DNA from: Patescibacteria group bacterium
GTDB lineage: Bacteria > Patescibacteriota > Minisyncoccia > Phycocordibacterales > UBA9973
Direction of reading: 5' to 3'
Length of the DNA: 64,000 nucleotides
Assembly (NCBI GenBank): GCA_028868715.1
Contig: JAGWUB010000001.1
Coordinates: forward strand, 247,206-311,205
Part shown: one piece after another, positions 1 through 62,983 of the stretch
Layout: every line of letters starts with the position of its first letter
Position numbering within the stretch: position 1 is the stretch's first letter
Made by a program: the position numbers and the translations under genes
The notes under the pieces: model-generated
Told to the model about the DNA's origin: nothing
The model's database searches: none
What the model saw: the letters and a program-made list of their open reading frames with translations, nothing else

Positions 1-1707
1 GCTCACGCCGGAATTCCTTATGATGAGAATGGTAAAATAACCGAAGAGAGAGTAGAAGCTAGACTCAAAACAGAGCCAGGTGTGATTTCCCGTATGGAAA
101 TTGATTTTATAGATGTTGCCGCCAACCAAGCTTTCTCAATCGCAACTTCTCTCATCCCATTCCTAGAACACAACGATGCCAACAGAGCACTGATGGGATC
201 AAATATGCAGAAGCAAGCTGTGCCTTGCGTGCTTCCCGAAGCTCCATTAGTCGCAACGGGTGTTGAGGAATTAGCTTCAAGAGATTCAGGTAGACTAATT
301 ATTGCCCAAGAAGATGGCGTTGTTTCTTATTTAGATGCAAAGAAAATAATAGTTACCAATAAAGCTGACAAAAAGAAAACTTATGACCTTGTTAACTTTA
401 TGAGAAACAACAATTTCTCTGTATTTCATCAACGTCCAGCTGTGGATGTCGGAGATAAAGTTAAAAAGGGTGATGTGCTTGCAGACACCAGCAGTACAGT
501 TGGAGGTCAGATTTCAATCGGGCAAAATATTTTCGTAGCTTTTCTGTCTTGGTCTGGATCAAACTATGAAGATGCGATTATTATTTCGGAGCGTTTGGTT
601 AAAAATAGTAAATTTACCAGTATTTATCTTGAAGAATTTACTTGCGTGGTTCGGGATACTAAGCTAGGGCCCGAAATTACCACTCGCGATATACCAAACA
701 TTGGAGAACTCAAACTAAAAGACTTAGATGAAGACGGAATTGTTCGTATCGGCGCTGAAGTCAGAGAAAATGATATTTTAGTTGGTAAAATTACTCCAAA
801 GGGTGAGACAGAACTTACTCCAGAAGAAAGATTGCTCCGCAGTATCTTTGCTGAGAAAGCTCGTGATGTCAAAGATACATCACTCCGTATGGAGCATGGT
901 AAGCGTGGACGTATTATTGGAGTAAAGATCTTTTCTCGTGATCTTGGACACTCACTCGAGGCTGGGATTATTAAAAAGATTGTTATTGAAGTTGCCCAGA
1001 TAAGAAATATTTCAATCGGAGACAAACTTTCTGGAAGACACGGAAACAAGGGTGTTATCTCAACCATCCTTCCAGAAGAAGACATGCCTTATACTGCGGA
1101 TGGTACTCCTATTGATATTATTCTTTCACCACTCGGTGTTCCTTCTCGTATGAACTTGGGACAGATACTAGAAATGCATTTAGGTATGGCTGCTCACACC
1201 CTCGGCTACCAAGCAATCACTCCACCATTTTTAGGAGCGAGACAAGAGGAAATAACCGAAGAATTGAAAAAGGCTGGATTACCTGAAAATGGCAAATTAA
1301 AACTTTTTGATGGACGCACTGGAGAAGCTTTCAAACAAGATGTGGCCGTAGGTTATATGTATATGTTGAAACTTCACCACATGGTGGAAGACAAAATTCA
1401 CATGCGTTCCATCGGGCCCTACTCACTTATCACCCAACAACCTTTGGGCGGAAAAGCTCAAGGTGGGGGACAGAGATTCGGAGAAATGGAAGTCTGGGCA
1501 CTCGAAGGTTATGGCGCAGCTTATACTTTGCGTGAAATGTTAACTATTAAATCTGATGATATCGCAGGTCGTAGCGCTACTTTTGATTCTATTATCAAAA
1601 ATGAAACAATCAGACCACCTAATTCTCCAGCATCATTTAACGTCTTGTTAAATTATTTGAGAGGACTTGCTCTGGATGTGAACTTAATGAAAAATAAAGA
1701 TAAATAA
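1..1707 (+). CDS. rpoB: DNA-directed RNA polymerase beta subunit, C-terminal part. The gene starts upstream of the window.
   Basis: The frame is open from nt 1. I see RpoB C-terminal motifs such as GEMEVWALEGYGAAYTLREMLTIKSDD and SGRHGNKGVIS. rpoC follows 2 nt later. Confidence 0.95.
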   Translation, partial: AHAGIPYDENGKITEERVEARLKTEPGVISRMEIDFIDVAANQAFSIATSLIPFLEHNDANRALMGSNMQKQAVPCVLPEAPLVATGVEELASRDSGRLIIAQEDGVVSYLDAKKIIVTNKADKKKTYDLVNFMRNNNFSVFHQRPAVDVGDKVKKGDVLADTSSTVGGQISIGQNIFVAFLSWSGSNYEDAIIISERLVKNSKFTSIYLEEFTCVVRDTKLGPEITTRDIPNIGELKLKDLDEDGIVRIGAEVRENDILVGKITPKGETELTPEERLLRSIFAEKARDVKDTSLRMEHGKRGRIIGVKIFSRDLGHSLEAGIIKKIVIEVAQIRNISIGDKLSGRHGNKGVISTILPEEDMPYTADGTPIDIILSPLGVPSRMNLGQILEMHLGMAAHTLGYQAITPPFLGARQEEITEELKKAGLPENGKLKLFDGRTGEAFKQDVAVGYMYMLKLHHMVEDKIHMRSIGPYSLITQQPLGGKAQGGGQRFGEMEVWALEGYGAAYTLREMLTIKSDDIAGRSATFDSIIKNETIRPPNSPASFNVLLNYLRGLALDVNLMKNKDK

Positions 1708-11488: not shown

Positions 11489-11564
11489 TGGAGCCGGAAG
11501 AGGGATTCGAACCCACGACCTTCGCTTTACAAAAGCGTTGCTCTACCAACTGAGCTATTCCGGC
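11489..11564 (-). tRNA. tRNA, probably tRNA-Thr (anticodon UGU)
   Basis: The minus-strand cloverleaf has acceptor GCCGGAA/TTCCGGC, a GTTCGAATC T-loop, anticodon loop TTTGTAA and an encoded CCA. Confidence 0.8.
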
Positions 11565-16021: not shown

Positions 16022-16901
16022 AAGCCGAAAAAGGAATAGGTTTCTGAAAATTATTTTTGGTATTTTCTTTTTCATTATTTTATTTTATTTTCGAGCAGGT
16101 ATTTTTAATGGACTTTCGTATATAAGTGGAGGCGTTTTTCGCCCAGTTTTAATTTCTAGCAATGGTATTGGTGGAAAAATTAATGATCTTGGCTCATATT
16201 TTTCTTCTAAGAATTCTCTCTATAAAGAAAATTTGGACTTAAAATCTAAGCTGGACGGCAGTGCTGCAGATAGAGCCAACTATGATTCAGTAGTGGCAGA
16301 GAATCAAAGCCTGAAAGAAATTTTAGGCAGAAAAAATATCCAGGCTAACATGATCTTGGGAGCTATTTTAGCAAAGCCAAATCAGAGTTTATATGATACG
16401 CTCTTAATTGATGTGGGTAGTGAACAAGGCATAAAAATGGCAGACAGAGTTTTTGCTTATGGAAATATTCCGATAGGCTACATAGCAGAAGTTAATTCAA
16501 AATCTTCAAAAGTAATTTTACTTTCAAATAGTGGAGAGGTGACACAAGTCGTGGCTTCTATTACTCATAACCCCGCTGACGAGGCAAACAAGCCAATACA
16601 GAGTGACACAGTGACGGTGGACCAAATTACACCTAGCCCTAGTGTTGTCCCTACTCCCGTTGCGCAAGGTAAAAACGTTTCTTTGGAAATAATTGGACGT
16701 GGTGGTGGAAATTTTGAAATGGCTATACCAAACGGACTTAATTTATTTAAAGGAGATCAAGTCGTTTTGCCAGGTATGTCATCTTATGTAGTTGGTATTG
16801 TAGAGACTATCATTTCTGATCCACGTAATTCTTTCCAAAAAGCCTTATTAGTATCTCCAGTTAATATTCAAGGACTTAAATTTGTGGAAGTGCAAAATTG
16901 A
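16002..16901 (+). CDS. mreC: rod-shape determining protein MreC (likely)
   Basis: It overlaps the mreB stop. It has an N-terminal TM helix, a coiled-coil and a beta-rich C-terminal part. Confidence 0.6.
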   Translation: MSYLLDKSRKRNRFLKIIFGIFFFIILFYFRAGIFNGLSYISGGVFRPVLISSNGIGGKINDLGSYFSSKNSLYKENLDLKSKLDGSAADRANYDSVVAENQSLKEILGRKNIQANMILGAILAKPNQSLYDTLLIDVGSEQGIKMADRVFAYGNIPIGYIAEVNSKSSKVILLSNSGEVTQVVASITHNPADEANKPIQSDTVTVDQITPSPSVVPTPVAQGKNVSLEIIGRGGGNFEMAIPNGLNLFKGDQVVLPGMSSYVVGIVETIISDPRNSFQKALLVSPVNIQGLKFVEVQN

Positions 16902-18199
16902 TGGATTTTAAAATTGAGAAAAAGTTAAAAAATAGTCTTGGGCGGGCTGGGGTATTAAAAACTGCTCATGGGGAAATCCATACTCCAGCTTTCGTGCCCG
17001 TGGGAACGAAAGCTACGATCAAGGCTCTCACTACTGAACAGGTTTTGGAGCTTGGCGCCGAAGTTATTTTAGCTAATACATACCATCTTTATTTACAACC
17101 AGGAGATGAAATTGTAAGAGATGCCGGTGGCTTACATAAATTTATGAACTGGAATGGTCCAATCATCACCGACTCTGGTGGTTTTCAAGTTTTTTCTTTG
17201 GGCGCTGCTTACGGAAAAGAGATTTCCAAGGTAACAAAGATAACTGATCCTTCACTTTTGATCCCAGAACGTTTTGACGACAGCGATGCTCCGCGGCTGG
17301 CAAAAATTGGACAAGATGGAGTTTCCTTTAAGTCACATCTTGATGGCTCGGTGCATTATATTACTCCCGAAAAGTCTATTGAAATTCAACACAACCTAGG
17401 CGCAGATATTATTTTTGCTTTTGATGAATGTACTAGCCCAACTGAGGACTTACGTTATCAAGAAGAAGCACTGGAGCGAACGCATCGATGGGCAGAGAGA
17501 AGTTTAGCGGAGCATGAAAAATTAAAGAATTCAAAAAAGCAACTTTCTCACGACTCGCACTCTGTCCTGAATATGACTGACCGAGCTTTGGATGCGAAGG
17601 TCGAAGAAAGTTCTTTTTCGAATTCTTCTAAAAATTTTTCTTCCGCACTTTTTGGTATTGTGCAGGGTGGGCGGGATGAAAATTTGCGCAAGAAATCAGC
17701 TCATTTTATGAGTAAGCTAGATTTTGATGGATTTGGGATTGGTGGGAGTTTTGCCAAGGAAGATATGTCTACGGCTGTGAAATGGGTAAATAAGATTTTG
17801 CCAGAGGAAAAACCTCGCCATTTACTTGGTATCGGTGAACCAGAAGATTTGTTTATGGGTATAGAAAATGGGGTGGATCTTTTTGACTGCGTAGCGCCAA
17901 CTCGCAACGCCAGAAATGGTTCGCTGTATACCAAAGGTGGAAAAATAAATATTACAAATACGAAATACCGAAATGACTTTTCAAAAATAGAAGAAGCTTG
18001 CGAGTGTTACACCTGCAAAAGCTATACTCGTGCCTATTTAGCACACCTCTTCCACGGTAAAGAAATGTTAGCTGGAACACTCGCCACAATACACAATCTT
18101 TATTTTATTGTTAGCTTAGTTAAAAAAATTCGACGATCAATCATAGACGAAAACTTCTTCGAATTCAAAAAGGAGTTCTTGAGCGAGTATTCACAATAG
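16898..18199 (+). CDS. tgt: queuine tRNA-ribosyltransferase with a roughly 33-aa in-frame insertion
   Basis: The N-terminus reads LKTAHGEIHTPAFVPVGTKA. The zinc site is CECYTCKSYTRAYLAHL. The gene is about 55 aa longer than a typical Tgt. Confidence 0.9.
   Translation: MMDFKIEKKLKNSLGRAGVLKTAHGEIHTPAFVPVGTKATIKALTTEQVLELGAEVILANTYHLYLQPGDEIVRDAGGLHKFMNWNGPIITDSGGFQVFSLGAAYGKEISKVTKITDPSLLIPERFDDSDAPRLAKIGQDGVSFKSHLDGSVHYITPEKSIEIQHNLGADIIFAFDECTSPTEDLRYQEEALERTHRWAERSLAEHEKLKNSKKQLSHDSHSVLNMTDRALDAKVEESSFSNSSKNFSSALFGIVQGGRDENLRKKSAHFMSKLDFDGFGIGGSFAKEDMSTAVKWVNKILPEEKPRHLLGIGEPEDLFMGIENGVDLFDCVAPTRNARNGSLYTKGGKINITNTKYRNDFSKIEEACECYTCKSYTRAYLAHLFHGKEMLAGTLATIHNLYFIVSLVKKIRRSIIDENFFEFKKEFLSEYSQ
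17527..17625. repeat. 99-nt GC-rich palindromic MITE/RPE-like element inserted in frame in tgt
   Basis: Terminal inverted repeats are GAATTCAAAAAAGCAACTTTCTCA and TCGAAGAAAGTTCTTTTTCGAATTC. Length is 33 codons. GC is far above the surrounding sequence. Confidence 0.6.
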
Positions 18200-20229: not shown

Positions 20230-20526
20230 AGCCTTGTGTTAGATAGCTACTCTTCGATTTATATCGGAGAGAGGAAAGTCCGAACACATAGCCCTTTGGG
20301 TTAAACGTAGCGGGTAATTCCCGTCGTCCGCAAGGATAGAGGTGCGAACAGAGACGAGCTCCTTTAGTGGAGGTGAAACGGCAAAATCCTTACGCGTGTG
20401 CAAGATCGTGCTCCGACCTCGGTCGGAGAGAATCGCTTGAGTCCTGTAGTAATGCAGGACCTAGACAAATTGCTATCGCTCCGACCTCGGTCGGGGTCAC
20501 AAAATTCGGCTTATAGACACAAGGCT
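20230..20526 (+). ncRNA. rnpB: RNase P RNA (bacterial type, compact)
   Basis: P4 strands GAGAGGAAAGTCCGAACAC and ACAAAATTCGGCTTATA. A GGTGAAACGG motif. The P1 helix closes as AGCCTTGTGT...ACACAAGGCT. Confidence 0.85.
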
Positions 20527-20534
20527 AAAACATG

Positions 20535-21614: not shown

Positions 21615-21688
21615 GGGCCCTTAGCTCATCTGGCTAGAGCGCCTCATTTGCAATGAGGAGGTGGCAGGTTCGAGTCCTGTAGGGTCCA
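21615..21688 (+). tRNA. tRNA-Ala (anticodon UGC)
   Basis: Cloverleaf with acceptor GGGCCCT/AGGGTCC including the G3:U70 Ala identity pair. Anticodon loop TTTGCAA. Confidence 0.88.
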
Positions 21689-21708
21689 CCGAAAAGTTAG
21701 TTATTTTT

Positions 21709-21783
21709 TCCGGGGTAGCTCAGCGGTAGAGCGGTCGCCTGTTAAGCGATTGGTCGTAGGTTCGATCCCTACCCCCGGAGCCA
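21709..21783 (+). tRNA. tRNA-Asn (anticodon GUU)
   Basis: Cloverleaf with acceptor TCCGGGG/CCCCGGA, anticodon loop CTGTTAA, T-loop TTCGATC and an encoded CCA. Confidence 0.88.
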
Positions 21784-32302: not shown

Positions 32303-33799
32303 ATGGAAGGGCTCGATGACAAAAAAAAAGGATCCAACCTGCGTTGGTGGATATTACTTACCGTTATAATTGGAACTTTTTTAGGTCGCCTAGATCAAAC
32401 GATAGTGAACTTGGCTCTGCCAAAAATCATTAATGATTTTGGCATTTCGGTTACCGCGGCTGGATGGATAGCTACAGCTTATATTTTAGCTAATGCTGTT
32501 TTCGTGCCGATTTGGGGTAAATTGGGCGATACTATTGGAAGAAAAAAAGTTTACATTATTGGTTTCAGTATTTTTATTTTCGGTTCTGTCTTGGCGGGAC
32601 TTTCATGGAATCTTTCTTCAATGATTGTCTTTCGGGTGATTCAAGCTATAGCCGGATCAGCTGATTATCCGACAGCCATGGCGATATTAGCCGTGACTTT
32701 CAAAAATGGAAAAGAACGTGCGCAAGCACTCGGCATTTGGTCCTCTTCTTTCGCCGCCGCGGCTGTTTTTGGACCACTTTTAGGTGGTCCTTTGATAGAC
32801 AATTTTGGCTGGCGTTCAGTTTTTCTAATCAATCTTCCAATTGGTATTTTAGGTATCATCATGGCCGTTCGTTTTATCAATGAATCACGTTCAGAACAAA
32901 AAACCACATACTTTGATTGGTGGGGATCGCTTTCATTGGGAGGTATGCTTTCTATGTTGGTGCTCGTTTTAGACAAAGGATTAACTTGGGGTTGGTTTTC
33001 AACCGCAAGTCTAATATGTTACTTTTTGATAATTTTCCTCTTGTGGTTATTTATCAGAATAGAAAAAAATGCCAAAGACCCGATTGTGGATTTGCGTTTT
33101 TTCAAAATTCCTGCTTTTGTCAATACTCTGATTAATAACTTTATTGTTTTTATGGGTATGATTGGCGGAATTTTCTTGATACCTATATTTGCGCAAACGT
33201 TTCTCGGGTATACCGCTACTCAATCAGGATATCTTTTTATTCCGATGGCTGCAGCCTTGATGCTAGCAGCTCCAATAGGAGGCGCACTGACTGGGCGAGT
33301 CCAAGCGCGCTACGTGATTTTTGCCAGTACCTTGGTGGCAGCCATCGGTATTTATTTCTTCTCCTTTCTTGATCCCAAGTCCGGTGCTCTGGCTATAATA
33401 ATTCCGCTTTCGGTCATGGCTTTTGGTCTTGGTTTTGGAATGGCGCAACGAACGAATGTTATTGCTTCCGTAGTAAACCCAAATGAAATCGGCATTGCTT
33501 CTTCAATTTTGGCCCTAGCTCGCAATATTGCTGGCGCTTTTGGAATTGCTATTTTTGGAACAATTTTAACAAACCGAGTTTATACAAACGTAATGTCTAT
33601 AAACAATTTTAGCGTTATTCGTAGTACCAATCCGATTGATATAAGTAAATACGTTGGACTAGTAGAACTAAAAGCTCAAGTCAATGCTTACAACTATGTT
33701 TTTTTGGTTGCATCCATTATAGTTTTTGTCGGAGCCTTTGCGGTGCTCTTTATGAAAATTAAACATGAACGCACGGATATAACTGTGCACGTAGAGTAA
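32303..33799 (+). CDS. MFS drug:H+ antiporter, DHA2 (EmrB/QacA-like, 14 TM helices)
   Basis: Motifs LPKIINDFGISVTAAGWIATAYILANAVFVPIWGKLGDTIGRKKVYIIG and VFRVIQAIAG. 498 aa. Confidence 0.85.
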   Translation: MEGLDDKKKGSNLRWWILLTVIIGTFLGRLDQTIVNLALPKIINDFGISVTAAGWIATAYILANAVFVPIWGKLGDTIGRKKVYIIGFSIFIFGSVLAGLSWNLSSMIVFRVIQAIAGSADYPTAMAILAVTFKNGKERAQALGIWSSSFAAAAVFGPLLGGPLIDNFGWRSVFLINLPIGILGIIMAVRFINESRSEQKTTYFDWWGSLSLGGMLSMLVLVLDKGLTWGWFSTASLICYFLIIFLLWLFIRIEKNAKDPIVDLRFFKIPAFVNTLINNFIVFMGMIGGIFLIPIFAQTFLGYTATQSGYLFIPMAAALMLAAPIGGALTGRVQARYVIFASTLVAAIGIYFFSFLDPKSGALAIIIPLSVMAFGLGFGMAQRTNVIASVVNPNEIGIASSILALARNIAGAFGIAIFGTILTNRVYTNVMSINNFSVIRSTNPIDISKYVGLVELKAQVNAYNYVFLVASIIVFVGAFAVLFMKIKHERTDITVHVE

Positions 33800-49815: not shown

Positions 49816-50214
49816 ATGCGAATAAATTTACAAGGCAAAAATATTGAGTTAACGGAGCCTATCAAAGATTATGTTTTAAAGAGAGTAACTAACTTGGAAA
49901 AATTACTTTCTGGGATTGAAAAAGGGGGAGGGGAAGTAGCAGTCACGTTTGAAGTTGGTAAAAGCACCAAGCATCACAAAGGAACTTCTATTTTTAATGC
50001 TTATTGTTTAATCAATACCAATGGCGAAGAATTTTATTCTAGCGCTGATGAGGAGGATTTATATACCGCGATTGATATAGTTAAAGAAAATCTCTTTAGG
50101 GAAATAAATAAAAACAAAGATCGTAAAAAGACATTGTTTAAACGAGGAGCCATGAGCGTCAAAAAAATGCTCAAAGGTCTTTCCAAGCGAAATCCTTTTA
50201 CTTCTAAGTACTAA
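49816..50214 (+). CDS. hpf: ribosome hibernation-promoting factor / RaiA family
   Basis: MRINLQGKNIELTEPIKDYVLKRVTNLEKLL...EDLYTAIDIVKENLFREINKNKDRKK. Confidence 0.85.
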   Translation: MRINLQGKNIELTEPIKDYVLKRVTNLEKLLSGIEKGGGEVAVTFEVGKSTKHHKGTSIFNAYCLINTNGEEFYSSADEEDLYTAIDIVKENLFREINKNKDRKKTLFKRGAMSVKKMLKGLSKRNPFTSKY

Positions 50215-51107
50215 TTTTTATAATCCATTTCTTTACCTCCCTCGGGGATAATTTTTTCTATAATGAATTGGTTATTTTCTAATTTTGCTTTAGTAATTAT
50301 TATTCTTTTTCCATCCTTAAAGAAGTAAGTTCTAGGCCAAGTGGCATAGGCACGAAATTTATTGTAATTTTTAACCGAGTCGTCAGAAAGATCTATTAAC
50401 CCATCTTCTTTTTTTATTTTAGTACAATAAGTTGCTTTTGTTTCATCTTGTCGAGTTGTTTTAATTGTTCCAGCTATAAATTCCGGTAGAGTTTTTACCA
50501 GAAGCTCACCTCCAAGTTTTATCAATCGCTTGCGAAGTTCTGGGGATTTTTCATCTGGCATTATTTCTGTCTTATCTATAGCAATGATTGGCCCGGAATC
50601 CATTTTGAATTCCATTTGTTGAATAGTTACCCCCGTCTCTGTGTCGCCATTTAAAATAGCAGATTCCACCGGTGAAGCTCCGCGATATTTAGGAAGCAAA
50701 GAATAGTGAAGGTTTATAGAGCCTAGCTTTGGTAGCTTCAGTATATTTTCTGGAATTATTTTTCCGTAAGCTACGACTAAGAAGAGCTCGGGGATATTTT
50801 TGCTTACACGCATATCCTGCTGGTGCAGGATTGCTTTTCTCGGCTCGTCAGCCTGCGAAGAGATCGCAAAAATATCCCCGAGCTCTTCTTTGAGTTTCTC
50901 TGGTTGTATGTATGGAATATTATTTTCCATAGCCCAAACCTTGGCTGGTGGGGGAGTAATGACCATTTTACGCCCCTGTGGGCGGTCAGGAGCAGTTACA
51001 ATAAGACTAGGTATATATCCAGCACTCTTTAGTATTTCCAAAGTCTCACTGGCCACATCTGGAGTACCCCAAAATACAAAATTTAACTTTTTACTATTAT
51101 CTTGCAT
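50211..51107 (-). CDS. fmt: methionyl-tRNA formyltransferase with a short in-frame repeat-derived insertion
   Basis: NFVFWGTPDVASETL and SINLHYSLLPKYRGASPVESAILNGDTETGVTIQ. Confidence 0.9.
   Translation of the reverse strand: MQDNSKKLNFVFWGTPDVASETLEILKSAGYIPSLIVTAPDRPQGRKMVITPPPAKVWAMENNIPYIQPEKLKEELGDIFAISSQADEPRKAILHQQDMRVSKNIPELFLVVAYGKIIPENILKLPKLGSINLHYSLLPKYRGASPVESAILNGDTETGVTIQQMEFKMDSGPIIAIDKTEIMPDEKSPELRKRLIKLGGELLVKTLPEFIAGTIKTTRQDETKATYCTKIKKEDGLIDLSDDSVKNYNKFRAYATWPRTYFFKDGKRIIITKAKLENNQFIIEKIIPEGGKEMDYKN
50800..50880. repeat. degenerate copy of the GC-rich palindromic element, inserted in frame in fmt
   Basis: TCTCGGCTCGTCAGCCTGCGAAGAGA matches the 25-nt core of the def element at 21/22 positions. 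An adjacent palindrome is ATCCTGCTGGTGCAGGAT. It encodes ..SSQADEPRKAILHQQD.. in fmt. Confidence 0.6.
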
Positions 51108-51111
51108 ATTA

Positions 51112-51693
51112 TTACTTAGGAAGTTCTTCTTTCACCTCCTTGGCATGGTCTATAAACAGTATGCCATTTAGGTGGTCGGTTTCGTGTTGGAAAATTTGAG
51201 CGAGCAAACCAGATGCTCCGCGAGTAAATTTTTTACCGTTTTCATCGTAAGCGGTGACAGTGGCTTTTTTTGATCTATTAACTTTTCCATAAAGCCAGCG
51301 GACAGAAAGGCACCCCTCTGGCAACCATTCCTTTTCACGCGAAAGTTTGGAAATTTTTGGATTGATAAACACCATATCTTTCTCCGCAGACTTTCTCAGA
51401 GCGGGGTCGCTATCTGTGCGTGCTCGCACAGCGCTCCCTCTCGGCTCGTCAACCTGCGAGAGACCCCGCCTTGAGAAGTCTGCTCCGAAAATTTTTCCTG
51501 ATACAACAAAAATTCTCAGGCTGTAACCAATCTGTGGAGCAGCTATGGCTACACCATCATGCTGGCTAGAGAGGGCCACAGACATCTCTTTTAATATCTT
51601 TTTTATTTTCGTAGTTTTAATATCTGGCAAAAGTACCTCTTTGGCAACTTTCCGCAAAGTCTTCTCTTTTTGTTGAAGAATTTTTTTTGGCAT
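51112..51693 (-). CDS. def: peptide deformylase carrying a 32-aa in-frame insertion between motifs 1 and 2
   Basis: Motif 1 GVAIAAPQIG, motif 2 EGCLS and motif 3 QHETDHLNG are present. The motif 1 to motif 2 spacing is about twice the usual. Confidence 0.9.
   Translation of the reverse strand: MPKKILQQKEKTLRKVAKEVLLPDIKTTKIKKILKEMSVALSSQHDGVAIAAPQIGYSLRIFVVSGKIFGADFSRRGLSQVDEPRGSAVRARTDSDPALRKSAEKDMVFINPKISKLSREKEWLPEGCLSVRWLYGKVNRSKKATVTAYDENGKKFTRGASGLLAQIFQHETDHLNGILFIDHAKEVKEELPK
51387..51482. repeat. 96-nt GC-rich MITE/RPE-like element with 22-bp terminal inverted repeats, inserted in frame in def
   Basis: CAGACTTTCTCAGAGCGGGGTC ... GACCCCGCCTTGAGAAGTCTG. An internal palindrome is GTGCGTGCTCGCAC. 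The core is TCTCGGCTCGTCAACCTGCGAGAGA. Length is 32 codons. Confidence 0.7.
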
Positions 51694-60875: not shown

Positions 60876-61886
60876 ATGTTAAATCCAGATTTAAAATTAA
60901 ATCCAAAAATTTTCAATGACGATGTCGCGCAAGCACCGATCCGAAAAGGCTTCGGGGAGGGGTTAGTTTTAGCTGGGGATCAGGATAAAAATGTAGTGGC
61001 CCTTTGCGCCGATTTGACCGAGTCCACCCAAATGATTTTTTTTAAAGAAAAGTTTCCAGAGAGATTTGTGGAAATTGGTGTGGCTGAACAAAATCTCGTT
61101 ACGGTTGCTTCTGGGATGGCAGCAATGGGCAAAATTCCTTTTTGTTCTTCTTATGCGATGTTTTCTCCGGGGAGAAATTGGGAACAAATCAGGACAACCA
61201 TAGCTTACAACGACCGACCGGTAAAAATAATTGGTTCACATGCGGGTATTTCTGTCGGACCGGATGGTGGCACACATCAAGCCCTGGAAGACATTGCTCT
61301 CATGCGCGTGGTACCAAACATGGAAGTCATTTCTCCTTGTGATTCAATTGAAGCCAAAAAAGCAACTCAAGCAATTACCAAAACTGGCAAACCAGCATAT
61401 TTACGACTAGCTAGAGAGAAAACTCCCATAGTCACCACAGAAGAAACTCCATTTACGCTTGGCAAGGCCGAAGTTTATTGGATGCCAGATGTGGGCATTC
61501 CTCAGGTAGGAATAATAGTAACTGGTGGGTTGATGCATCGGGCCCTACTCGCTGCTAAAGAATTACAAGACCAAGAGGAGCCACAGCGAATTAAAACAAA
61601 AGTAATGAATCTTTCATGCATCAAGCCGATAGATGTGAAAGCTATTGTGGCTTTAGCAAAAGAATGTAAAGCAATCGTAACTGTGGAGGAGCATCAAGTT
61701 GCTGGTGGAATGGGATCGGTAGTAGCAGAGGTACTCTCGCAAAATTTTCCGGTGCCGATGGAATTTGTCGGCGTGCAAGATAAGTTTGGGCAAAGCGGTA
61801 CACCAGACGAACTCATAGAACATTATGGTATGGGAAAAAATTCTATCAAAGAAGCGGTGAGGAAAGTGCTAAAACGAAAAATCTAG
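60876..61886 (+). CDS. tkt: transketolase, C-terminal (pyrimidine-binding) subunit
   Basis: FVEIGVAEQNLVTVASGMAAMG...SHAGISVGPDGGTHQALEDIALMR. Confidence 0.85.
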   Translation: MLNPDLKLNPKIFNDDVAQAPIRKGFGEGLVLAGDQDKNVVALCADLTESTQMIFFKEKFPERFVEIGVAEQNLVTVASGMAAMGKIPFCSSYAMFSPGRNWEQIRTTIAYNDRPVKIIGSHAGISVGPDGGTHQALEDIALMRVVPNMEVISPCDSIEAKKATQAITKTGKPAYLRLAREKTPIVTTEETPFTLGKAEVYWMPDVGIPQVGIIVTGGLMHRALLAAKELQDQEEPQRIKTKVMNLSCIKPIDVKAIVALAKECKAIVTVEEHQVAGGMGSVVAEVLSQNFPVPMEFVGVQDKFGQSGTPDELIEHYGMGKNSIKEAVRKVLKRKI

Positions 61887-61985
61887 GAAAGAGTTTTTAT
61901 AAAGCAATCTATCTGGCGTTGCTACGCCAGCGAACCTGCTCGGGCCGACGCCCTTGCGCAAGACTTTCTAAAAACTCTTTCCTAG
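61884..61985. mobile_element. 102-nt GC-rich MITE-like palindromic element between convergent tkt and pfkB. It has perfect 17-bp terminal inverted repeats.
   Basis: CTAGGAAAGAGTTTTTA ... TAAAAACTCTTTCCTAG. Internal hairpins are CTGGCG-TTGCTA-CGCCAG and GGGC-CGAC-GCCC. The two CTAG ends supply the TAG stop codons of both flanking genes. Confidence 0.65.
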
Positions 61986-62983
61986 ATCCTATTGGCCTTG
62001 TAGTTTGCAGGTGCGTTTTTTAGATATTCCTCTAGCTTTTCTCTGGATAAAAGTCCTGCTTGAGCACCGACTTTTTGCACTACAGACATAGAATTTACTG
62101 GCCCCCAAGCAAATGCTTCTAGAGGAGATTTTCCCAGAGCGAGTCCTGCTGTAATAGTGGAAGAAAAAGCATCTCCGGCACCAGTGCGCTCTAGTGGTGG
62201 AGCGATGTCAGGATATATTGGGATTTTCCATAGCTCATCATTTAAATATAAATATGCTCCGTTTGGCCCATCGCTAATACAAACTATTTTTGGTCCGAGA
62301 GCCATTAAGCCTTTTGATAAAGTAAGCACGTCTTTGCCTTCAATTCCCAAGATTTTTTCGGCTTCTTCCAGATTGCAGAAAAATATTTCTGTTCGTGCAT
62401 ATATTTCTTTTAATTTTTCTGCACCAAATTTTATTTGAAATGTTCCCGGCTGGAAAGCTAGCTTGGTTTCTGGGTGATTCTTTAAAAATTCTATTATAGC
62501 CAAATGATAGGGCAGGGAATGCTCTGCCAAAGAACTCAAGTAAATCCAGGATATTTTAGGTAATTTTGGAAGTTTGTATTCAAATTCCGTGTGTTTGATT
62601 AAAATTGTTCGATCAATATCGTACCACAAAACATAGTGGTAATTTGTAATTTTGTCTTTTTCAATTGCTATGTATTCTGTCGTTACTTTTTCATTTTTTA
62701 ATGACTCTAAGCAATCATTGCCATGTTTATCATTTCCAATACTGGCCACGAGTCCGACGTTTAGTCCTAGGCGTGAAGCTGAGACTGCCGCATTTGGGCT
62801 ATTGCCAACTGCTGGTACCACGGTTACAGATTCATAGGGAACTTTATCTCCAAAACGAAAACAAAGTTCACACGCATCTGTATCTATTCGGCAATGTACG
62901 TGGGCATCGTTTAATTTTATAAATGCATCTATGACAATGTCTCCAATTGCCAAAAGATCTATTTCACCCTCTTTTTCGTTCAT
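61982..62983 (-). CDS. PfkB-family carbohydrate kinase (ribokinase-like)
   Basis: C-terminal TGAGDAF motif. An N-terminal GG pattern. Confidence 0.75.
   Translation of the reverse strand: MNEKEGEIDLLAIGDIVIDAFIKLNDAHVHCRIDTDACELCFRFGDKVPYESVTVVPAVGNSPNAAVSASRLGLNVGLVASIGNDKHGNDCLESLKNEKVTTEYIAIEKDKITNYHYVLWYDIDRTILIKHTEFEYKLPKLPKISWIYLSSLAEHSLPYHLAIIEFLKNHPETKLAFQPGTFQIKFGAEKLKEIYARTEIFFCNLEEAEKILGIEGKDVLTLSKGLMALGPKIVCISDGPNGAYLYLNDELWKIPIYPDIAPPLERTGAGDAFSSTITAGLALGKSPLEAFAWGPVNSMSVVQKVGAQAGLLSREKLEEYLKNAPANYKANRI

What the first reader, a model, noticed from the sequence alone, without database searches (positions are those of the whole stretch)
51387..51482. GC-rich palindromic MITE/RPE-like element inserted in frame inside peptide deformylase
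A 96-nt segment (32 codons) inside def is far more GC-rich than its surroundings. It is bounded by 22-bp inverted repeats (CAGACTTTCTCAGAGCGGGGTC / GACCCCGCCTTGAGAAGTCTG). It contains the internal palindrome GTGCGTGCTCGCAC and a 25-nt core TCTCGGCTCGTCAACCTGCGAGAGA. It adds the hydrophilic peptide DFSRRGLSQVDEPRGSAVRARTDSDPALRKSA between Def motif 1 (GVAIAAPQIG) and motif 2 (EGCLS). All three catalytic motifs and the reading frame are preserved. This is the hallmark described for Rickettsia palindromic elements (RPEs), which colonise protein-coding genes in frame. Such elements have not, to my knowledge, been described for CPR-type genomes.
Basis: partly seen in the sequence, partly recalled or inferred. 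Interest (0 to 1): 0.8.

Follow-up and report, generated by a model that had tools for sequence, protein, structure and literature searches.

The report
Palindromic repeat element inside deformylase gene
The GC-rich stretch inside the peptide deformylase gene is one copy of a widespread ~111-base, hairpin-forming repeat of Parcubacteria (CPR bacteria); it sits in frame inside many unrelated housekeeping genes and between genes, much like the palindromic elements of Rickettsia, and appears to be unreported.

Summary
Window 51379-51489 (minus strand) is a 111-nt element. It has a long outer stem and a conserved 67-nt three-way-junction core with two small hairpins.

A covariance model finds a second copy in frame in the neighbouring fmt gene, and a third between convergent genes. 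A decayed remnant lies in tgt.

The same element occurs in Def and Fmt of many Nomurabacteria/Paceibacteria. It is also in frame in UvrD, UvrB, UvrC, RecG, TsaD, Tgt, class I tRNA synthetases, RluA-type synthase and DnaE, and in intergenic spacers of GC-richer Parcubacteria.

Across 88 copies 95% of predicted pairs are kept, and 29 of 37 pairs show compensatory changes. Only two of six reading frames are used inside genes, one per orientation. Orthologous sites hold the element in either orientation.

The core is as conserved as, or more conserved than, the flanking coding DNA, whereas the outer arms are locus-specific. No transposase, target-site duplication, Rfam family or literature report was found.

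Best reading: an RPE-like selfish or semi-domesticated palindromic repeat that is translated as a surface loop. How it spreads remains unknown.

The parts
51379..51489 (-). Whole 111-nt palindromic element (37 codons) inside def; three-way junction with outer stem P1 and hairpins P2 and P3
   Evidence: Covariance model R1 scores 120.4 bits. RNA fold -59.4 kcal/mol, z -5.0. G+C 0.61 against 0.37 for the window.
51387..51408 (.). The inner 8-9 bp (GCGGGGTC) are conserved in the family; the outer part is locus-specific.
51462..51482 (.). Right arm of outer stem P1 (GACCCCGCCTTGAGAAGTCTG)
51439..51463 (-). Hairpin P2 (CUCUC-GCA-GGUU-GACG-AGCC-GAGAG on the coding strand). This is the most conserved part and is shared 20/21 with the fmt copy.
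51409..51435 (-). Hairpin P3 (GCGCUG-UGCG-AGCA-CGCA-CAGAUAGCG). The base is conserved; the tip covaries between copies.
51112..51693 (-). Host gene def (peptide deformylase, 193 aa). The element adds about 26 residues to the loop between the motif-1 and motif-2 blocks.
   Evidence: In the PDB alignment, query residues 66-105 face only residues 65-78 of Leptospira PDF 1szz/1sv2.
50779..50890 (-). Second copy, in frame in fmt (CDS 50211-51107, minus strand). It has a perfect 25-bp outer stem and an AT-drifted core encoding ...ISSQADEPRKAILHQQDMRVS...
   Evidence: R1 45.4 bits; fold -65.8 kcal/mol, z -10.1. Absent from fmt of the nearest relative L201.
61881..61987 (-). Third copy, intergenic. 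It fills the spacer between the convergent transketolase C-half gene (60876-61886, plus) and the PfkB kinase gene (61982-62983, minus).
   Evidence: R1 53.8 bits, E 2.6e-12, not in the training set; fold -56.7 kcal/mol, z -7.8.
17523..17628 (-). Probable decayed copy in tgt (CDS 16898-18199, plus strand), in antisense orientation. The 29-bp outer stem is kept and the core is degenerate. It sits at the site where relatives carry intact copies.
   Evidence: R1 14.2 bits; fold -42.6 kcal/mol, z -6.7; Tgt copies in L116, L133, L109, L141, L081; tgt ORF.

Best explanation
The segment is one copy of a Parcubacteria-wide family of about 111-nt GC-rich palindromic repeats.

Anatomy (shown). Each copy has a nearly invariant 67-nt core that folds, as RNA or as single-stranded DNA, into a tight three-way junction. 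The junction comprises the inner stem GGGGUC/GACCCC, hairpin P2 and hairpin P3. The core is flanked by about 20-nt outer arms. The arms differ from locus to locus but pair with each other.

Behaviour (shown).
- Copies lie in intergenic spacers and, in the AT-rich lineages, in frame inside many unrelated housekeeping genes.
- Inside genes only two of the six frames occur, one per orientation.
- Orthologous sites can hold the element in either orientation.
- Copies either stay pristine or drift to AT-rich, unstructured protein loops.

Interpretation (inferred).
- Inside genes the element is not removed. The ribosome reads through it, adding a hydrophilic, probably disordered peptide to a tolerant surface loop. 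In Def this is the loop between the motif-1 and motif-2 blocks.
- It behaves like the Rickettsia palindromic elements: a selfish or semi-domesticated DNA-level repeat. It was seeded long ago and survives only where the encoded peptide is harmless.
- Its stems are kept complementary by hairpin-templated correction or by selection.
- It can invert in place by recombination between its own arms.

The enzyme or process that copies it is unknown.
For: Repeat family:
- The window holds three copies, which are also its three most stable 110-nt folds.
- A further 15 copies lie at the def site and about 11 at the fmt site among 80 species genomes.
- A 32-nt pattern gave more than 120 metagenome stretches, and about 80 of the 80 loci examined were confirmed at 42-113 bits.

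Structure:
- On 88 copies 95.3% of cells are paired, against 40-48% when partners are slid.
- 29 of 37 pairs show compensatory change, and 686 cells show a double change against 198 in shuffles.
- Ten orthologous fmt-site copies keep a 20-bp stem with almost no broken pair while the arm sequence changes.

Not a Def-specific loop:
- Hosts include UvrD, class I aaRS, LeuRS, UvrB, UvrC, RecG, RluA-type synthase, DnaE, TsaD and Tgt.
- 31 copies are intergenic, directly after stop codons.

Translated, not spliced:
- All 47 copies in ORFs of at least 190 aa use one sense frame or one antisense frame.
- Unused frames carry stops in about half of the copies.
- No frame-breaking copy inside a gene was seen.

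Flipping:
- L038 and L139 fmt copies are 108/111 identical after inversion, while their flanks are about 83% identical.
- At the TsaD site two of nine species have the element inverted.
- Def of L037 and L044 carries it inverted.
- Copies read in one orientation keep the other orientation's frame open in 25/27 and 17/19 cases.

Decay:
- Def loops fall into two classes, GC-rich and strongly folding or AT-rich and unfolded at similar length.
- A remnant lies in tgt.

Loop position: the PDB alignment splits Def at the insert.
Against: - No target-site duplication, no conserved terminal repeat beyond the inner 8-9 bp, and no clean empty/filled boundary were found.
- No transposase recurs within 2.5 kb of the 31 intergenic copies.
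- The core is as conserved as, or more conserved than, the flanking coding DNA at orthologous sites: TsaD 0.84 against 0.73, fmt 0.97 against about 0.83, def 0.70 against 0.72. That is unusual for dead selfish DNA and points to a sequence-level function or to continual renewal.
- Translation through the element is inferred from frame statistics only.
- One def copy (L009) carries an in-frame TAG.
- The AlphaFold model of Def was unusable (pLDDT 37.6), so surface exposure rests on a sequence alignment alone.
Confidence: 0.7

Rival explanations
1. The conserved core is a functional nucleic-acid module kept by selection, not just selfish DNA. One version is a DNA site or cruciform bound by a host protein, with a role in nucleoid organisation, recombination or DNA uptake, as with REP/BIME or uptake-signal sequences. 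Another is an RNA structure that stabilises or processes transcripts. Copies in genes would then be tolerated or exploited instances of the same module.
For: - About 45 core positions are nearly invariant across copies from genomes of 30-59% G+C.
- The core is more conserved than the flanking coding DNA at orthologous TsaD and fmt sites.
- G+C of 55-65% is held against AT-rich genomes.
- Intergenic copies fill spacers directly after stop codons.
- G-U pairs outnumber A-C mismatches on the element's own strand whatever the host gene's direction, by 3.7 to 9.2 fold. This suggests one defined strand folds.
Against: - Many copies decay to unstructured AT-rich loops without loss of the host gene. 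The fmt copy is absent in the nearest relative. So no single copy is essential.
- An mRNA-level role does not fit use in both orientations inside genes.
- No match to any of 4227 Rfam families.
- The G-U asymmetry could simply be inherited from a master copy.
Confidence: 0.2
2. A lineage-specific Def loop maintained by protein-level selection, with the hairpin a by-product of the coding sequence.
For: Nearly all of the 120 closest Def homologues are 190-200 aa and carry an insert at this position. A recurrent peptide pattern is RG.SQ.D.PRGSA...DSDP.
Against: - The same nucleotide element occurs in more than 10 unrelated proteins, in intergenic DNA and in inverted orientation, where it encodes a different peptide.
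- The peptide is the least conserved part of Def, while base pairs covary.
Confidence: 0.03
3. An intron-like or otherwise excised element that is removed from the mRNA, so that the protein is unaffected.
For: - Structure rather than peptide is conserved.
- One def copy (L009) has an in-frame TAG in the P2 loop.
- CPR bacteria are known (from my own knowledge) to carry unusual insertions in rRNA genes.
Against: - Copies inside genes are always a multiple of three in effect and stop-free in the host frame (47 of 47). They use only 2 of 6 frames, while unused frames have stops in about half of the copies. An excised element would not be under such constraint.
- No copy interrupts a gene out of frame.
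- No ribozyme or intron family matches.
Confidence: 0.04

Closest known systems
Rickettsia palindromic elements (RPE-1 to RPE-10; Ogata et al. 2000, cited in PMC10969869; described in PMC1779305)
   Same: - Interspersed 100-150 bp palindromic repeats abundant in both intergenic and protein-coding regions.
- Inserted in frame in unrelated housekeeping genes of a small-genome bacterium.
- Some insertions are ancient and shared by all species of the clade. The RPE-7-like insert in PheT parallels the def and fmt sites here.
- No known transposase.
   Different: - Unrelated host phylum (Patescibacteria against Alphaproteobacteria). Sequence relation to RPEs was not tested.
- GC-rich in an AT-rich genome.
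- Only a 67-nt core is conserved, while the outer arms are locus-specific.
- The core is as conserved as, or more conserved than, host coding DNA.
- Orientation flips occur at orthologous sites, and one reading frame is kept open for each orientation.
- Whether RPEs share these last features was not checked here.
[quoted passage not shown]
   Same: Small, non-coding, inverted-repeat-bounded, multi-copy; sometimes intragenic with in-frame fusions (review PMC10969869).
   Different: - No target-site duplication was detected.
- The terminal repeats are not conserved between copies beyond the inner 8-9 bp.
- No parent insertion sequence or nearby transposase was found.
REP/BIME and REPIN elements with RAYT transposases
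   Same: Abundant palindromic repeats that fold as hairpins and lie in spacers right after stop codons. Structure is maintained by compensatory change, and a role as protein-binding or mRNA-stabilising sites has been proposed for them (my own knowledge).
   Different: - REPs are extragenic by definition and shorter (20-40 nt units).
- They carry a conserved 5' tetranucleotide and are associated with a RAYT gene.
- Here many copies are inside genes, the unit is a three-way junction, and no Y1-transposase neighbour was seen.
DNA uptake signal sequences (Neisseria DUS, Pasteurellaceae USS)
   Same: Conserved nucleotide motifs that occur in genes in the frames and protein regions where the encoded peptide is tolerated, and as inverted pairs between genes (my own knowledge).
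   Different: Uptake signals are 9-30 nt and far denser, about one per kb. Here the unit is 111 nt at roughly one per 15-20 kb in the window. No evidence links this element to uptake.

Membership tests
RPE-like in-frame palindromic repeats (kind, not sequence family) | Dispersed multi-copy repeat of about 100-150 bp present in both intergenic and coding DNA | tested here: met
   Three copies in the window. About 80 confirmed copies in metagenome loci: 47 in long ORFs and 31 intergenic.
RPE-like in-frame palindromic repeats (kind, not sequence family) | Palindromic, with a predicted stable secondary structure | tested here: met
   z -5 to -10 for the window copies. 95.3% of cells paired over 88 copies, with 29/37 covarying pairs.
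RPE-like in-frame palindromic repeats (kind, not sequence family) | In-frame insertion in unrelated housekeeping genes with the host ORF and catalytic motifs preserved | tested here: met
   Def, Fmt, Tgt, TsaD, UvrD, UvrB, UvrC, RecG, LeuRS, Ile/Val-type aaRS, RluA-type synthase, DnaE.
RPE-like in-frame palindromic repeats (kind, not sequence family) | Insert lies on the protein surface and is compatible with the fold | tested here: inconclusive
   The PDB alignment places the insert in a loop between two conserved blocks. The AlphaFold model was unusable (pLDDT 37.6).
Rickettsia RPE sequence families (RPE-1..10) | Sequence similarity to the published RPE profiles | not tested
Composition and host phylum make homology unlikely, but that is an inference.
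MITE | Terminal inverted repeats conserved among copies | tested here: not met
   Outer arms are 38% identical between copies against 76% for the core. Copies with near-identical cores have unrelated arms. Only the inner GCGGGGTC/GACCCCGC is conserved.
MITE | Target-site duplication flanking the element | tested here: inconclusive
   No conserved or per-copy direct repeat was evident at filled sites compared with empty sites (fmt WIN vs L201; UvrD site 1). The boundaries are blurred by age.
MITE | Cognate autonomous insertion sequence or transposase | tested here: inconclusive
   No transposase family recurs among 124 ORFs within 2.5 kb of 31 intergenic copies. Whole genomes could not be searched.
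REP/REPIN-RAYT | Extragenic location and association with a flanked RAYT (Y1 transposase) gene | tested here: not met
   The finding and 47 other copies are intragenic. No Y1 transposase was seen next to intergenic copies.
Any Rfam family (ribozymes, introns, cis-regulatory RNAs) | Covariance-model match | tested here: not met
   No match for the element at E up to 10 in the window. Only sub-threshold microRNA-hairpin hits appeared on canonical intergenic copies.
Self-splicing or excised intervening sequence | Interrupts the gene without constraint on frame or stop codons | tested here: not met
   47/47 intragenic copies are stop-free in the host frame and use only 2 of 6 frames. Unused frames are open in only about 45% of copies.

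The most novel reading that the evidence does not exclude
The 67-nt three-way-junction core is a functional, sequence-constrained module recognised by a conserved Parcubacteria factor, such as a recombinase, a DNA-uptake or nucleoid protein, or an RNA-binding enzyme. It is embedded in locus-specific palindromes that are built and kept perfect by a hairpin-templated process. It can switch orientation in place, a 'flip-flop' element kept readable in both directions. That would make it a general generator of new protein loops in CPR housekeeping enzymes, rather than a passive RPE analogue.
Probability: 0.25. Interest if true: 0.85.

Novelty: new variant of a known kind. Interest (0 to 1): 0.65.

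Why it matters
In-frame palindromic repeats have been regarded as a peculiarity of Rickettsia and a few other lineages. Finding an unrelated, structurally well-defined family throughout Parcubacteria has several consequences.

- The phenomenon evolved independently in another group of reduced-genome bacteria.
- It explains many 'lineage-specific inserts' in CPR core enzymes (Def, Fmt, Tgt, TsaD, UvrD, aaRS) that complicate annotation, alignment and structure prediction.
- It offers a dated series, from pristine copy to AT-drifted loop, for studying how selfish DNA becomes protein sequence.
- Three features are testable clues to an unknown copying or maintenance mechanism: the conserved core with locus-specific arms, the orientation flips, and the core being more conserved than the coding DNA around it.

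Tried and rejected
1. Target-derived arms. I asked whether the outer arms are made by inverted duplication of the target. A logo of 45 copies shows only weak consensus in the arms, and empty/filled comparisons were ambiguous. Arms are inherited between orthologues. The origin stays unresolved and I neither adopt nor exclude the idea.

2. In-phase flip. A simple flip of the codon-aligned 111-nt block would read an antisense frame with a stop. The frame actually used is shifted by one base. The L038/L139 comparison needs 1-nt offsets at both junctions. The inversion end points must therefore lie inside the palindromic arms.

3. AlphaFold model of Def with a 25-sequence alignment: pLDDT 37.6, unusable.

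4. Rfam at permissive thresholds: nothing relevant.

5. Plasmid and phage collections by blastn: no match.

6. Viral contigs: two pattern hits, neither confirmed by the model.

7. Neighbour-gene survey for a transposase: none recurrent.

8. The inverted repeat at 33239-33351, in an MFS transporter gene, folds well (z -5.7) but scores only 11.8 bits. It encodes typical transmembrane sequence, so I do not count it as a copy.

9. Seven literature searches: no CPR report found, in an incomplete library.

Full report
**1. The observation**

The def gene lies on the minus strand at 51112-51693. It encodes 193 aa, matches Pfam Pep_deformylase at E 2.4e-42, and has all three catalytic motifs.

The segment 51387-51482 has 62.5% G+C in a window of 37.1%.

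The region folds as a long stem closing two small hairpins. The RNA fold is -59.4 kcal/mol (z -5.0) and the DNA fold has z -4.9. I scanned the whole window in 110-nt steps. This locus and two others (50781-50890 and 61881-61990) are the three most stable folds, at -58 to -64 kcal/mol against a mean of -20.3 and sd 5.9.

**2. It is a repeat**

A blastn and pattern search found a 20/21 match of the core inside the neighbouring fmt gene (50838-50858). The repeat finder showed that this match is enclosed by a perfect 25-bp inverted repeat at 50779-50803 and 50866-50890. It also showed a third unit with the same geometry at 61881-61987.

The fmt copy is in frame and encodes ...ISSQADEPRKAILHQQDMRVS... 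The third copy fills the spacer between the convergent transketolase C-half gene and the PfkB kinase gene.

**3. Orthologues**

The 120 closest Def homologues are 71-86% identical and come from Patescibacteria, Paceibacterota and Nomurabacteria MAGs. Nearly all are 190-200 aa with an insert at this position, and the insert is the least conserved part of the protein.

I fetched DNA for 80 species genomes. The Def loop between SGKIF and KDLVFINP ranges from 19 to 50 aa and falls into two classes:

- GC-rich and strongly folding: 0.53-0.66 G+C, -46 to -89 kcal/mol.
- AT-rich and unfolded: -2 to -15 kcal/mol, often of the same length.

L037 and L044 carry the same nucleotide element in the opposite orientation, encoding ...GSLS..ALPLG.S.CE.PR....

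An alignment of 14 copies gives a three-way junction with 37 pairs, 24 of which show compensatory changes.

**4. Family size and hosts**

A covariance model built from that alignment (R1) gave these results:

- Window: the def copy scores 120 bits, the intergenic copy 53.8 bits (E 2.6e-12, not in the training set) and the fmt copy 45 bits.
- 80 genome loci: the model finds the def-site copies. It also finds fmt-site copies in L038 (canonical, 97 bits) and in seven or more further species (an AT-drifted subfamily), plus copies elsewhere.
About 80 of the 80 loci examined are full-length model matches at 42-113 bits.

Of these metagenome copies, 47 lie in ORFs of at least 190 aa and 31 lie in spacers directly after stop codons.

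Hosts confirmed by Pfam are UvrD/PcrA (two copies in one gene), Ile/Val-type and Leu tRNA synthetases, UvrB, UvrC, RecG, an RluA-type pseudouridine synthase, DnaE, TsaD and Tgt.

Contigs of 50-59% G+C carry only intergenic copies. They belong to Kaiserbacteria- or Uhrbacteria-like Parcubacteria.

The window's own tgt gene holds, at the site occupied in relatives, a remnant with a 29-bp stem (z -6.7) but a degenerate core.

**5. Structure conservation**

On 88 copies:

- 95.3% of cells form standard pairs, against 40-48% when partners are slid by 1-3 columns.
- 29 of 37 pairs show changes on both sides.
- 686 cells show a double change, against 198 in shuffles.

This alignment was fitted to the model and so leans towards the structure, but the margin is very large.

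Ten orthologous fmt-site copies were aligned independently. They keep a 20-bp outer stem with almost no broken pair while the arm sequence, and hence the encoded peptide, changes.

**6. What is conserved**

Copies in UvrD, TsaD, Tgt and Def of different organisms differ by only a few bases over a 67-nt core. Their outer 20-nt arms are unrelated between loci, yet self-complementary within each copy. Mean identity is 0.76 for the core and 0.38 for the arms.

Arms are similar between orthologous copies, so they are inherited and the insertions are old.

Element identity compared with flanking coding DNA at orthologous sites:

| Site | Element identity | Flank identity |
|---|---|---|
| TsaD, 9 species | 0.84 | 0.73 |
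| fmt, L038 vs L139 | 0.97 | about 0.83 |
| def | 0.70 | 0.72 |

An unconstrained loop should have diverged much further than this.

**7. Reading frames and flips**

Inside genes only two frames occur:

- Sense: RG[VL]SQADGPRGSA...DSDP.
- Antisense: GSLSP...ALPLGSSACETP.

The other four frames are stop-free in only about 45-55% of copies, and they are rich in Arg, Cys and Trp.

Copies read in one orientation keep the frame of the other orientation open in 25/27 and 17/19 cases. Nothing in their present use requires this.

Orientation differs between orthologues at four sites:

- def (L037, L044).
- fmt: L038 is sense and L139 is antisense, with 108/111 identical after flipping.
- TsaD: two of nine species are inverted.
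- Tgt: L116 against L133, where the two copies differ in sequence.

Recombination between the element's own arms would produce such flips; this is inferred, not shown.

No copy was found that breaks a gene's frame. One def copy (L009) has an in-frame TAG in the P2 loop. It may be an assembly error, a pseudogene or something more interesting.

**8. Presence/absence and hot spots**

The nearest relative, L201 (Def 86% identical), has the def copy at 117.9 bits. It lacks the fmt copy: its Fmt is 274 aa against 298 aa. The boundary is not clean, because a 24-nt linker stands in place of the element.

The same permissive sites hold other palindromic insert families in other species:

- EPHPNPLLNKERE in Def and UvrD.
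- LRGNSPK..FGE and TPSAFGTSPLSRGRLG in Fmt.
- KPARNA.HSDAGG in Def and Fmt.
- An unrelated insert with perfect 22-bp arms at UvrD site 1.
- A second palindrome nested in the P2 loop of L025.

Either selection leaves only a few tolerant loops, or existing palindromes attract further insertions.

**9. Position in the protein**

phmmer against the PDB aligns Def residues 3-65 and 106-188 to residues 3-64 and 79-161 of Leptospira interrogans PDF (1szz, 1sv2). The insert therefore enlarges a 14-residue loop to 40 residues. From memory, that loop is the mobile 'CD loop' next to the substrate pocket; I did not verify this.

The AlphaFold run failed (pLDDT 37.6).

**10. What it is not**

- No Rfam family matches.
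- No match in plasmid or phage collections.
- The two viral pattern hits were not confirmed by the model.
- No transposase recurs near intergenic copies.
- No target-site duplication was found.

**11. Comparison and verdict**

The element behaves like the Rickettsia palindromic elements. Those are 100-150 bp interspersed palindromic repeats found in intergenic and coding DNA. They sit in frame in housekeeping genes, and some insertions are shared by a whole genus (PMC1779305; PMC10969869).

It differs from them in several ways:

- the host phylum;
- being GC-rich in AT-rich genomes;
- having a strongly conserved three-way-junction core with locus-specific arms;
- the orientation flips with both frames kept open.

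It fails the MITE criteria that could be tested.

I found no report of such elements in CPR bacteria in the held literature, which is incomplete.

I therefore rate it a new variant of a known kind. I have high confidence in what it is and only moderate confidence in how it spreads and why its core is so well kept.

Noticed in passing
window 50779-50890 (minus), inside fmt 50211-51107: Second in-frame copy of the same element, with a perfect 25-bp outer stem (fold z -10.1). It is absent from fmt of the nearest relative L201.
   Followed up: yes
window 61881-61987 (minus): Intergenic copy filling the spacer between the convergent transketolase C-half and PfkB kinase genes. Both stop codons lie in its arms.
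   Followed up: yes
window 17523-17628 (minus), inside tgt 16898-18199: Decayed copy: a 29-bp stem is kept but the core is degenerate (14 bits). It sits at the site where relatives' Tgt genes hold intact copies in either orientation.
   Followed up: partly
window 33239-33351, inside a 498-aa MFS-type transporter gene (32303-33799): A 30-nt imperfect inverted repeat folding as a three-way junction (z -5.7). It scores only 11.8 bits with the model and encodes ordinary transmembrane sequence, so it is probably unrelated.
   Followed up: partly
L009:10199-10309 (def of a Nomurabacteria MAG): The def copy has an in-frame TAG (GACTAGCC where others have GACGAGCC) in the P2 loop. It may be an assembly error, a pseudogene or a recoding event.
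   Followed up: no
L025:10181-10330: The def copy carries a second GC-rich palindrome of about 39 nt nested in the P2 loop. The whole insert is 150 nt, folds at -88.9 kcal/mol and is still in frame (peptide ...RPPSLRSGESGRG...).
   Followed up: no
Def/Fmt/UvrD of relatives (L033, L070, L062, L079, L042, L153; L069, L052, L071, L032, L039; L005, L006, L078; P0087, P0120, P0061, L139): At least four other in-frame, hairpin-forming insert families use the same permissive loops: EPHPNPLLNKERE, LRGNSPK..FGE, TPSAFGTSPLSRGRLG and KPARNA.HSDAGG.
   Followed up: no
L136 (UvrD, site 1): A different palindromic insert with perfect 22-bp AT-rich arms (AATTTCGTTGGTAATGCTTTTT) and a GC-rich interior. It sits where L153 has the canonical element and four other species have none.
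   Followed up: no
L201:10575-11563: In the nearest relative two extra genes of unknown function (133 and 194 aa, opposite strand) lie between def and fmt. In the window def and fmt are adjacent.
   Followed up: no
L150 (LeuRS, 1156 aa) and L097/L125 (Ile/Val-type aaRS): These tRNA synthetases carry extra domains: a NUDIX domain inside LeuRS, and a histidine-phosphatase domain inside the Ile/Val-type enzyme. These are in addition to the palindromic element.
   Followed up: no
window 20231-20529; 11492-11564; 21615-21780: Ordinary RNA genes: bacterial RNase P class A and three tRNAs. They account for several of the other stable folds in the window.
   Followed up: yes
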